NCBI RefSeq assembly: GCF_045037415.1
Contig: NZ_CP173438.1
Origin: Escherichia coli
GTDB lineage: Bacteria; Pseudomonadota; Gammaproteobacteria; Enterobacterales; Enterobacteriaceae
DNA length: 64,000 nt
Reading direction: 5' to 3' (one strand)
Shown here: in pieces, positions 23,995 through 24,792 of the stretch
How the letters are laid out: the number at the start of each line of letters is the position of its first letter
Numbering within the stretch: the stretch's first letter is position 1
Position numbers and translations under genes: made by a program
The notes under the pieces: generated by a model
Told to the model about the DNA's origin: nothing
Database searches by the model: none
The model's input: only the letters and a program-made list of their open reading frames with translations

Positions 23995-24792
23995 AACTTG
24001 CTCCTTAGCCGTTATCGTTTCGAACATGTCATCCTTTTCATTATTTACATCCTTGTCCGAATCGTTGTTCAATATAGTAAACGCCTATAAGAACTTTGCC
24101 CTTCGTGAACTAATACGTCTATTAACACTAATCAATACTTCAGATTTATCCATCACGCACTCCATATATTGGTCCTAAGTAAGATTCCTGGTTGTTATCA
24201 GTTTGTAACTAGTAAACAAAAGGTTAACTTTTGCGGATTACTGCCCAAGAATAAGTTATCAATAACCAGTTTGTGATCTCTGAAGAATATTACTAAAGTT
24301 AAAATGTAATCCGATTTAAATATCGAGTCTCCTTGTTTCGACTTAGGCTGGCAATTGGATTGCCAGCTTTCTTTTAACGCATTGAAATTACCTGATTAAA
24401 TAACTCATTCATGTCTTCAGGTTTTTATATAGCGTCTGGAGACACGGATATTTATGCAATGTAATCAACGCCAGTTGCAAAAAAATGAACCCGGATTACT
24501 TATTTAACCGCCCATAGCATCAACGCTTACGGAACTCTTTGTTCACTTTCCCACAGCACTTTTAAAACATTAAACCTGACCACGGAAAATATCAGCCATG
24601 ATAATGTTTGAAATGGCTAATTTGCCATGGAACGAAAAAAATCAGATTAAATTCAGTAGGTTGAAATAATCAACAGCAGGCAATTGTTTCAATGATAGTG
24701 CGTAATTGAACTGAAACACTGTATAGCTAAGAGAGTATTAACTGGATCATAGTCACTTAATGTGACTATGATCCAGGTGGAAATAGGGATAA
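23995..24792 (-). promoter_or_regulatory. large gadE upstream regulatory region (multi-promoter sensory integration region)
   Basis: 798 bp AT-rich non-coding interval between hdeD and gadE, the same size as remembered for K-12; individual sites not mapped here. Confidence 0.6.

What the first reader, a model, noticed from the sequence alone, without database searches (positions are those of the whole stretch)
23995..24792. 798 bp gadE upstream integration region
This exceptionally long AT-rich non-coding region upstream of gadE is the same length as remembered for K-12, where it integrates EvgA/YdeO/GadX/GadW/GadE inputs and carries antisense RNA. Individual sites could not be assigned by eye.
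Basis: partly seen in the sequence, partly recalled or inferred. Interest (0 to 1): 0.25.

Follow-up and report, generated by a model that had tools for sequence, protein, structure and literature searches.

The report
Known gadE upstream control region
This is the well-studied 798-bp control region in front of the E. coli acid-resistance master regulator gene gadE, and it lines up with the laboratory strain K-12 without a single inserted or deleted base, so it is real but ordinary.

Summary
Window 23995-24792 is a 798-bp, ORF-poor, AT-rich stretch (35.5% GC against 49.8% for the window). It lies between hdeD (24793-25365, -) and gadE (23467-23994, -).

The K-12 MG1655 hdeD-gadE spacer is also 798 bp. 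The two align without gaps: 40 substitutions, 0 indels, 95.0% identity.

The K-12 antisense sRNA gene arrS maps to 24306-24375 (+) with 69/70 identity. Its terminator hairpin is intact and it has a sigma-S-like -10. The published gadE 5' ends (-566, -324/-317, -124, -21) map to 24560, 24318/24311, 24118 and 24015 in essentially unchanged sequence.

Consensus scanning could not place individual regulator sites. One GadX/GadW-like 17/20 match sits at promoter P3. No EvgA box was found, and GAD-box matches were weak.

What this work adds:
- The gadE-proximal 634 bp differs from K-12 at 1.9% of sites, below flanking synonymous divergence (4-11%). The hdeD-proximal 164 bp differs at 17%.
- Three islands are conserved across the genus Escherichia: P3, ArrS/P2 and P1/leader.
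- The 798-bp length holds only approximately, and only within E. coli. Other lineages have 720-794 bp.
- A covarying stem-loop follows hdeD.

Verdict: already known, low interest.

The parts
23995..24792 (-). Whole hdeD-gadE intergenic region (gadE promoter / 'sensory integration region'), 798 bp, 35.5% GC. gadE-sense is the window's - strand.
   Evidence: ORF map. Composition. Gapless 798-column alignment to the K-12 spacer with 40 substitutions. Present in 5413 of 5426 complete E. coli genomes.
24742..24776 (-). Stem-loop 17 nt downstream of the hdeD stop codon: 15-bp perfect stem, 5-nt loop, no U-tract. Probably the hdeD mRNA 3'-end hairpin (terminator or stabiliser). It marks the upstream edge of the region.
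   Evidence: Inverted repeat I1. Folding energy -25.7 kcal/mol, z = -7.2. Across 13 distinct Escherichia sequences, 3 strong compensatory pairs (CG/UA, GC/CG, AU/CG); covariation 0.193 against 0.077 in shuffles (0/500 reach it); all slid controls lower; the loop varies freely.
24629..24741 (-). Hypervariable distal segment (-747 to -635). Together with the hairpin and flank it forms the 164-bp hdeD-proximal part that carries 28 of the 40 differences from K-12.
   Evidence: Substitution list. 28/164 against 12/634, Fisher p = 5e-12, compared with flanking-gene pS of 0.04-0.11. Only 46-78% identity to other Escherichia lineages.
24662..24691 (-). Position of the K-12 TGAAAT-N18-ATTTCA pair, a candidate 'YdeO box' about -131 to -102 from T3. 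In the window the first hexamer is TGAAAC.
   Evidence: YdeO box defined as an ATTTCA inverted repeat with a 9-21 nt spacer, located -131 to -1 from the start sites (PMC4222967). Hexamer positions in K-12 and the window. Allele states in 14 sequences. The assignment to this exact pair is my inference; the paper's figure was not readable.
24550..24625 (-). P3 core. This genus-conserved block holds the published T3 5' end (-566 = window 24560), a TTTAAT -10-like hexamer and a GadX/GadW-motif-like site at 24580-24599 (17/20).
   Evidence: TSS position from PMC3708157. 94-97% identity to six other Escherichia lineages. Motif hit. Identical to K-12 apart from A>G at 24581.
24378..24473 (-). Spacer part of the T3 leader that is present in E. 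coli and its two closest lineages but absent from E. albertii, E. whittamii and two other lineages. It accounts for most of the length difference. It contains the 9-bp IS1 target (24453-24461) used in strain NR1430.
   Evidence: Cross-species alignment. Conservation profile 29-57%. IS1 junction analysis.
24306..24375 (+). [quoted passage not shown] It includes an intrinsic terminator at 24345-24369 followed by UUUCUUUU.
   Evidence: Coordinate transfer from K-12 b4704; 69/70 identical. It is the only terminator-like site in the scan. In the fold, the single substitution (24346) turns an A-U pair into G.U. 95-98% conserved across the genus. Function from PMC6755755 and PMC6212723. No Rfam family matched here.
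24293..24299 (+). Putative ArrS -10 element CTAAAGT (C at -13, TAAAGT at -12 to -7, then TAA), which is sigma-S-like.
   Evidence: Sequence upstream of the transferred ArrS 5' end; identical in K-12. ArrS is reported to be sigma-S- and GadE-dependent (PMC6755755). The hexamer assignment is my reading, not a tested promoter.
24311..24318 (-). Published T2 5' ends (-317 and -324). They lie inside the ArrS-complementary segment.
   Evidence: Positions from PMC3708157. The 45 nt upstream differ from K-12 by one base, at 24346.
24208..24227 (-). GAD-box-like 20-mer (-233 to -214, 12/20 to TTAGGATTTTGTTATTTAAA). It sits in a local cluster of 5 substitutions (-235 to -208).
   Evidence: Scan; substitution list. 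Weak match; whether it is the published GadE site could not be checked.
24159..24178 (-). Second GAD-box candidate, starting TTAGGAC (K-12 TTAGGAT), beginning 60 nt upstream of T1. The T>C change is at 24172.
   Evidence: Read directly from the alignment and the sequence listing. The C allele also occurs in E. albertii and Escherichia sp. E1V33. PMC3708157 reports a conserved GAD box in the P1 region. Only the first 6-7 bases fit the consensus.
24118..24118 (-). Published T1 5' end (-124), the start point of the GadE-autoactivated P1 promoter.
   Evidence: PMC3708157. The 45 nt upstream are identical to K-12. 100% conserved across the genus over -138 to -109.
23995..24117 (-). T1 leader, with four GGA motifs (candidate CsrA sites) and the Shine-Dalgarno AAGGAG at 24001-24006. 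Two substitutions against K-12 (24098, 24025); at both, K-12 carries the minority state.
   Evidence: Sequence. CsrA binds the gadE leader with KD 138 nM (PMC11210196). Allele states.
24085..24165 (-). 26-codon upstream ORF (ATG at -171, AGGA 7 nt upstream). It is present only in T2/T3 transcripts. Speculative part.
   Evidence: Open and 26 codons long in all 14 sequences. Variable sites fall 3/7/4 by codon position, so there is no sign of peptide-level selection. Not annotated in K-12 RefSeq.

Best explanation
The window carries the orthologue of the K-12 gadE 'sensory integration region' from a chu-positive E. coli lineage. It is an H-NS-silenced, AT-rich, multi-promoter control region.

As established in K-12, three main promoters feed gadE-mdtEF. 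P3 is distal, with its 5' end at -566. It receives activating inputs and is needed for ArcA-dependent anaerobic activation. P2 (-324/-317) is the second. P1 (-124) is auto-activated by GadE through a GAD box.

The long T3 leader is overlapped by the divergently transcribed sRNA ArrS, which depends on GadE and sigma-S. ArrS pairs in cis with the leader and promotes RNase III-dependent processing into a more productive gadE mRNA. The short leader also binds CsrA.

Shown here: exact collinearity with K-12; intact ArrS; unchanged core promoter contexts; purifying selection on the proximal 634 bp; and three genus-conserved islands that coincide with P3, ArrS/P2 and P1/leader.

Inferred from orthology: that the same regulators bind and act in this strain.
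For: Gene order and orientation match the K-12 acid fitness island: mdtF-mdtE-GadF-gadE-spacer-hdeD-hdeAB-yhiD, with gadA, gadX, GadY and gadW further along.

The spacer is 798 bp in both strains. The alignment is gapless at 95.0% identity.

ArrS is 69/70 identical. Its one change is structure-neutral (A-U to G.U), the terminator is detected independently, and the -10 is sigma-S-like.

The sequences 45 nt upstream of T3, T2, T1 and T differ from K-12 at 0-1 positions.

Proximal divergence is 1.9%, against synonymous divergence of 4-11% in gadE, hdeD, hdeB, mdtE and hdeA.

Conserved islands at -618 to -559, -378 to -259 and -198 to -1 are 89-100% identical to six other Escherichia lineages.

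The region is present in 5413 of 5426 complete E. coli genomes, one copy in nearly all, always chromosomal.

Literature for the mechanism: PMC3708157, PMC4222967, PMC4918353, PMC6755755, PMC6212723, PMC11210196, PMC11230228.
Against: No binding or expression data exist for this strain.

Consensus scans do not independently recover the sites. The GadX/W motif gives 6 hits in the window against 3.3 expected, with only one hit (3 mismatches) in the spacer. There is no EvgA box within 3 mismatches. GAD-box matches reach only 12-13/20.

The allele differs from K-12 at candidate sites: TGAAAT>TGAAAC and ATTTCA>ATTTAA in the proposed YdeO hexamers, TTAGGAT>TTAGGAC, and 5 changes in -235 to -208. Quantitative behaviour could therefore differ.

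The primary papers that mapped the sites (Ma 2004; Sayed & Foster 2009; Itou 2009; Aiso 2011, 2014) were not readable here.
Confidence: 0.93

Rival explanations
1. The same region, but rewired in this lineage. The fast-evolving hdeD-proximal 164 bp is the upstream activating part of P3. In this allele it has lost YdeO-type hexamers, so the EvgA-YdeO input to gadE is weaker or different from K-12 while the rest of the circuit is kept.
For: 28 of the 40 differences lie in -798 to -635. That is 17% divergence, about twice the flanking synonymous divergence. The only TGAAAT hexamer and one of four ATTTCA hexamers of K-12 are lost. The TGAAAC state is seen only in the window and EC17CM2 among 14 sequences. 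YdeO ChIP and EMSA place binding at gadE p2/p3 (PMC4222967).
Against: The YdeO box is a loosely defined hexamer pair with a 9-21 nt spacer, and ATTTCA is common in AT-rich DNA. The same hexamer is independently broken in L002 and L003, which suggests weak constraint. Many window states in this segment are shared with outgroups, so much of the difference may be change on the K-12 branch. The allele is very common: at least 99% identical in 1240 genomes.
Confidence: 0.15
2. The spacer hides a small protein-coding gene: the 26-codon uORF at 24085-24165 (-) or the 50-aa antisense ORF at 24026-24178 (+). Part of its conservation would then be coding constraint rather than regulatory DNA or RNA.
For: The uORF has an ATG preceded by AGGA at 7 nt. 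It is open with the same length in all 14 sequences from six lineages.
Against: Variable sites are 3/7/4 at codon positions 1/2/3 and most changes are non-synonymous. The T1 start lies inside the uORF, and the segment is conserved at nucleotide level as promoter P1. The antisense ORF is frameshifted to 11-21 aa in four lineages. Neither K-12 RefSeq nor PGAP annotates a CDS there. A literature search found no gadE uORF.
Confidence: 0.05
3. The long AT-rich spacer is decaying, horizontally acquired filler DNA with no function beyond a short proximal promoter.
For: GC is low relative to the window. IS1 and Tn3 insertions or deletions are tolerated in some isolates. About 95 bp is missing in other Escherichia species.
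Against: The proximal 634 bp evolves 3-5 times more slowly than flanking synonymous sites. Conserved islands lie as far as -618 from the ATG. Length is held within 2 bp in the sampled E. coli alleles. Published deletions show that P3 matters (PMC3708157).
Confidence: 0.02

Closest known systems
E. coli K-12 MG1655 hdeD-gadE intergenic region (gadE 'sensory integration region'; Ma et al. 2004, Sayed & Foster 2009, as summarised in PMC3708157)
   Same: Same flanking genes and orientation. Same 798-bp length with no indels. 758 of 798 bases identical. Same ArrS gene. Same sequence around all four published 5' ends. Same Shine-Dalgarno sequence and GGA motifs. The GadE protein is identical.
   Different: 40 substitutions, 28 of them in the hdeD-proximal 164 bp. 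Candidate YdeO hexamers and both GAD-box-like sequences carry changes. The hdeD 3' stem is one pair longer and has a compensatory C-G to U-A change plus a different loop.
ArrS antisense sRNA (K-12 b4704; Aiso et al. 2011, 2014, as cited in PMC6755755 and PMC6212723)
   Same: Same position relative to gadE (-381 to -312), same length, same terminator hairpin and U-tail, and 69/70 identity.
   Different: One A>G change at the base of the terminator stem (window 24346) gives a G.U pair. The same state occurs in E. albertii, L002 and EC17CM2. There is no Rfam model to score it against.
hdeD-gadE spacers of other Escherichia lineages (E. albertii, E. whittamii, Escherichia sp. E1V33, MOD1-EC7003, strains E69 and SCPM-O-B-8794)
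   Same: Same gene order. All share the conserved P3 core, the ArrS/P2 block, the P1/leader block and a covarying hairpin after hdeD.
   Different: They are 720-794 bp long, not 798. Four of them lack about 95 bp between P3 and the ArrS terminator, and they have extra sequence after hdeD.

Membership tests
E. coli gadE upstream sensory integration region (hdeD-gadE spacer) | Lies between hdeD and gadE, both transcribed in the same direction, inside the acid fitness island | tested here: met
   hdeD 24793-25365 (-), gadE 23467-23994 (-), with mdtEF, gadW, gadX, gadA on one side and hdeAB-yhiD on the other.
E. coli gadE upstream sensory integration region (hdeD-gadE spacer) | About 798 bp and collinear with the characterised K-12 sequence | tested here: met
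   798 bp in both; gapless alignment; 40 substitutions; 95.0% identity.
E. coli gadE upstream sensory integration region (hdeD-gadE spacer) | Sequence context of the published 5' ends T3 (-566), T2 (-324/-317), T1 (-124) and T (-21) is retained | tested here: met
   The 45 nt upstream of each differ from K-12 at 0-1 positions. Positions taken from PMC3708157. Actual transcription starts in this strain were not measured.
E. coli gadE upstream sensory integration region (hdeD-gadE spacer) | AT-rich composition typical of H-NS-silenced DNA | tested here: met
   35.5% GC against 49.8% for the window. H-NS/StpA occupancy is reported for K-12 (PMC3708157, PMC11230228) but cannot be tested here.
E. 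coli gadE upstream sensory integration region (hdeD-gadE spacer) | A GAD box (GadE/RcsB site) upstream of P1 | tested here: inconclusive
   The best 20-mer matches reach only 12-13/20. TTAGGAC at 24172-24178 fits only the left part of the consensus. The ChIP-exo 15-mer gives no good hit at P1. K-12 scores no better, so the consensus lacks power here.
E. coli gadE upstream sensory integration region (hdeD-gadE spacer) | GadX/GadW binding site | tested here: inconclusive
   One 17/20 match (18/20 in K-12) at 24580-24599, in the genus-conserved P3 block. Hits across the whole window are not above chance: 6 found, 3.3 expected.
E. coli gadE upstream sensory integration region (hdeD-gadE spacer) | EvgA and YdeO recognition sequences | tested here: inconclusive
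   No 18-bp EvgA box within 3 mismatches in the spacer; the consensus used was recalled from memory. YdeO hexamers: 3 ATTTCA and 0 TGAAAT in the window, against 4 and 1 in K-12. No full ATTTCA...TGAAAT inverted repeat is present in the window allele.
E. coli gadE upstream sensory integration region (hdeD-gadE spacer) | Regulator-dependent transcription (EvgA, YdeO, GadE, GadX/W, ArcA, RpoS, H-NS) | not testable with these tools
   Needs reporter, ChIP or EMSA experiments on this allele.
ArrS cis-antisense sRNA | A roughly 70-nt gene on the strand opposite gadE, complementary to the T3 leader and ending in an intrinsic terminator | tested here: met
   24306-24375 (+), 69/70 identical to b4704. 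An 11-bp terminator stem with a U-rich tail was found by an independent scan and by folding.
ArrS cis-antisense sRNA | Expressed; dependent on sigma-S and GadE; triggers RNase III processing of the gadE mRNA | not testable with these tools
   Only a sigma-S-like -10 (CTAAAGT) can be read from the sequence. Function is taken from PMC6755755 and PMC6212723.

The most novel reading that the evidence does not exclude
The hdeD-proximal 164 bp could be more than neutral filler and act as a lineage-variable tuning module. It has a structured, covarying RNA hairpin that ends or insulates hdeD transcription. This is followed by a fast-evolving upstream activating segment of P3 (17% divergence from K-12, about twice the flanking synonymous divergence). 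Allelic differences there, such as loss of YdeO-type hexamers in this common ExPEC-type allele, would set how strongly mild acid (EvgS-EvgA-YdeO) induces gadE in different E. coli lineages.
Probability: 0.12. Interest if true: 0.35.

Novelty: already known. Interest (0 to 1): 0.08.

Why it matters
GadE is the master switch of glutamate-dependent acid resistance and also drives the MdtEF efflux pump. Its control region decides when E. coli can survive stomach acid.

For this window, the practical result is that K-12 knowledge of promoters, ArrS and leader elements can be transferred base-for-base, using window position = 23994 + distance upstream of the ATG.

Nothing here changes current understanding. 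The modest additions are a map of which parts are constrained across the genus and a list of the allele's differences at candidate regulator sites.

Tried and rejected
1. Rfam (E <= 1 on 22500-27500; gathering threshold on the whole window). No family matches ArrS. The only hits are GadF/ES205, GadY, AgrB and the shuA thermometer, all outside the spacer.

2. Consensus scans for the GadX/W, GadE, EvgA and old ArcA motifs. They were too weak or too degenerate to assign sites.

3. Sigma-70 promoter scan. It gave 4 hits against 3.3 expected, and none fell at the published starts. This is consistent with activator-dependent promoters, but the scan is uninformative.

4. Coding potential. The antisense 50-aa ORF is rejected because it is frameshifted in other species. 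The 26-codon uORF is kept only as a low-probability aside.

5. Primary papers. Ma 2004, Sayed & Foster 2009 and, through them, the exact footprinted sites are not held in the library.

6. Literature search for an hdeD terminator or Term-seq 3' end. Nothing specific was found.

7. L008 ('Flavobacterium paronense') and L009 ('Streptomyces sp.') were dropped from the evolutionary analysis as E. coli contamination.

Full report
**Observation**

The window is the reverse complement of the K-12 acid fitness island. The genes and RNAs are:
- mdtF 18833-21946 (-)
- mdtE 21971-23128 (-)
- the GadF/ES205 sRNA 23278-23349 (-)
- gadE 23467-23994 (-)
- hdeD 24793-25365 (-)
- hdeA 25620-25952 (+), hdeB and yhiD (+)

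The stretch between the gadE ATG and the hdeD stop codon is exactly 23995-24792, which is 798 bp. Its GC content is 35.5%, against 49.8% for the whole window.

It is the second-longest stretch in the window without an ATG-ORF of 100 aa or more. The longest is 37449-38600, between slp and arsC.

**Comparison with K-12**

In NC_000913.3, hdeD ends at 3657567 and gadE starts at 3658366. That also gives a 798-bp spacer, with arrS annotated at 3657985-3658054 on the opposite strand.

The two spacers align over 798 columns without a gap. There are 40 substitutions, giving 95.0% identity. GadE itself is identical at protein level.

The region occurs in 5413 of 5426 complete E. coli genomes. It is always chromosomal. 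In 1240 genomes it is at least 99% identical to the window allele.

**Feature transfer**

A position n bases upstream of the ATG corresponds to window coordinate 23994 + n. PMC3708157 lists 5' ends at -566 (T3), -324/-317 (T2), -124 (T1) and -21. These map to 24560, 24318/24311, 24118 and 24015. The 45 nt upstream of each differ from K-12 at no more than one base.

ArrS maps to 24306-24375 (+) with 69/70 identity.
- Its terminator (24345-24369 plus a U-rich tail) is the only terminator-like site that the scan finds in the region.
- Its single substitution converts an A-U pair into G.U.
- A CTAAAGT element at -13 to -7 looks sigma-S-like. This fits the reported dependence of ArrS on sigma-S and GadE (PMC6755755).
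- ArrS acts in cis on the longest gadE transcript through RNase III (PMC6212723).

The T1 leader keeps its AAGGAG Shine-Dalgarno sequence (24001-24006) and four GGA motifs. CsrA binds this leader in K-12 (PMC11210196).

**Motif scanning**

- GadX/GadW ChIP-exo motif (PMC4918353): one hit in the spacer at 24580-24599. It scores 17/20 here and 18/20 in K-12, and sits at about -39 to -20 of P3. Hits across the whole window are not above chance, 6 against 3.3 expected.
- GadE motif and 20-bp GAD box: matches reach only 12-13/20. The two plausible candidates are -233 to -214 (24208-24227) and the TTAGGAC at 24172-24178.
- EvgA box (consensus recalled from memory): no match within 3 mismatches.
- YdeO hexamer ATTTCA (PMC4222967): it occurs 3 times in the window and 4 times in K-12. 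The only TGAAAT of K-12 reads TGAAAC in the window.

K-12 scores no better on these scans. The failure therefore reflects weak consensus sequences, not loss of the sites.

**Evolutionary footprint**

This is the new descriptive content.

*Substitutions against K-12.* They are very unevenly distributed. 28 fall in the hdeD-proximal 164 bp (17.1%) and 12 in the remaining 634 bp (1.9%), Fisher p = 5e-12. Synonymous divergence of the flanking genes is 0.04-0.11. The proximal 634 bp is therefore under purifying selection, while the distal part evolves at or above the neutral rate.

*Spacer length in other lineages.* A GadE-based scan of species-representative genomes returned six other Escherichia lineages. 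Their spacers are 794, 787, 745, 732, 721 and 720 bp long.

*Conserved islands.* Alignment shows three islands that are 89-100% identical to the window:
- -618 to -559, the P3 core
- -378 to -259, ArrS, T2 and the ArrS promoter
- -198 to -1, P1 and the leader

The intervening sequence is poorly conserved. About 95 bp (24378-24473) is absent from four of the six lineages.

*Length within E. coli.* The sampled alleles are 796-798 bp long. The figure of 798 is therefore typical of E. coli rather than invariant.

**hdeD 3' stem-loop**

A perfect 15-bp inverted repeat with a 5-nt loop lies 17 nt after the hdeD stop codon, at 24742-24776. Folding gives -25.7 kcal/mol, z = -7.2.

Across 13 distinct sequences, three pairs change on both sides (CG/UA, GC/CG, AU/CG). 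The covariation score is 0.193 against 0.077 in shuffles, with 0 of 500 shuffles reaching it. All slid controls are lower, and the loop varies freely. In strain E69 the G.U pairs form only on the hdeD-sense strand. No U-tract follows the hairpin.

I read it as the hdeD mRNA 3'-end hairpin that bounds the region. I found no description of it. It is a minor point.

**Other checks**

The 50-aa antisense ORF is frameshifted in other species.

A 26-codon uORF (24085-24165, -) with an AGGA 7 nt upstream is open in all 14 sequences. However, its variable sites fall 3/7/4 by codon position. There is thus no evidence for a conserved peptide.

In strain NR1430 the identical allele carries an IS1 with a 9-bp duplication at 24453-24461. 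In strain 3059 a Tn3 remnant removes everything from about the T3 start up to a gadA remnant.

**Verdict**

The finding is real and correctly interpreted. It is the already characterised gadE upstream integration region with its ArrS antisense RNA, collinear with K-12.

Mechanistic statements for this strain rest on orthology with K-12 experiments, not on tests done here. Novelty: already known. Interest: low.

Noticed in passing
window 24742-24776 (-): A 15-bp perfect stem-loop lies just after hdeD. It shows three compensatory base-pair changes across Escherichia and has no U-tract. It is probably an undescribed hdeD 3'-end hairpin.
   Followed up: yes
window 24629-24792 versus 23995-24628: Divergence from K-12 is split sharply: 17.1% in the hdeD-proximal 164 bp and 1.9% in the remaining 634 bp. 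Flanking synonymous divergence is 4-11%.
   Followed up: yes
window 24085-24165 (-): A 26-codon uORF in the T2/T3 leader has an SD-like AGGA upstream. It is open and the same length in 14 sequences from six lineages, but shows no third-position bias.
   Followed up: partly
L010 (E. coli NR1430), equivalent to window 24453-24461: An IS1 (768 bp, target duplication TATGCAATG) is inserted in an otherwise identical allele. It sits between the P3 start and ArrS and splits the T3 leader.
   Followed up: partly
L011 (E. coli strain 3059), 3047-4232: A Tn3-family transposase remnant replaces everything on the gadE side of about the T3 start. gadE, mdtEF, gadW and gadX are gone, and only a gadA fragment remains.
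   Followed up: partly
window 23278-23349 (-): The GadF sRNA (Rfam ES205, 106.5 bits) lies in the gadE 3' UTR. PGAP also calls an antisense 'hypothetical protein' across this area in strains with the same allele.
   Followed up: no
window 27157-37300: The chu/shu haem uptake cluster, with the shuA thermometer at 33021-33052, is inserted between yhiD and dctR-slp. K-12 has no such insertion. chuA is a marker of non-A/B1 phylogroups (from my own knowledge).
   Followed up: partly
window 37449-38600: This is the longest ORF-free stretch of the window (1152 bp, 35.5% GC), between slp and arsC. In strain SK1144 it holds a frameshifted pseudogene remnant. arsC appears without arsR or arsB next to it.
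   Followed up: no
L008 and L009: Contigs filed under Flavobacterium paronense (8.6 kb) and Streptomyces sp. DH24 (466 bp) carry E. coli hdeD-gadE sequence. L008 is K-12-like with homopolymer errors. Both are almost certainly contamination.
   Followed up: partly
window 24686 and 24648: The window allele changes the only TGAAAT (to TGAAAC) and one ATTTCA (to ATTTAA) among the hexamers proposed as the YdeO box. The TGAAAC state was seen only in the window and EC17CM2 among 14 sequences.
   Followed up: partly
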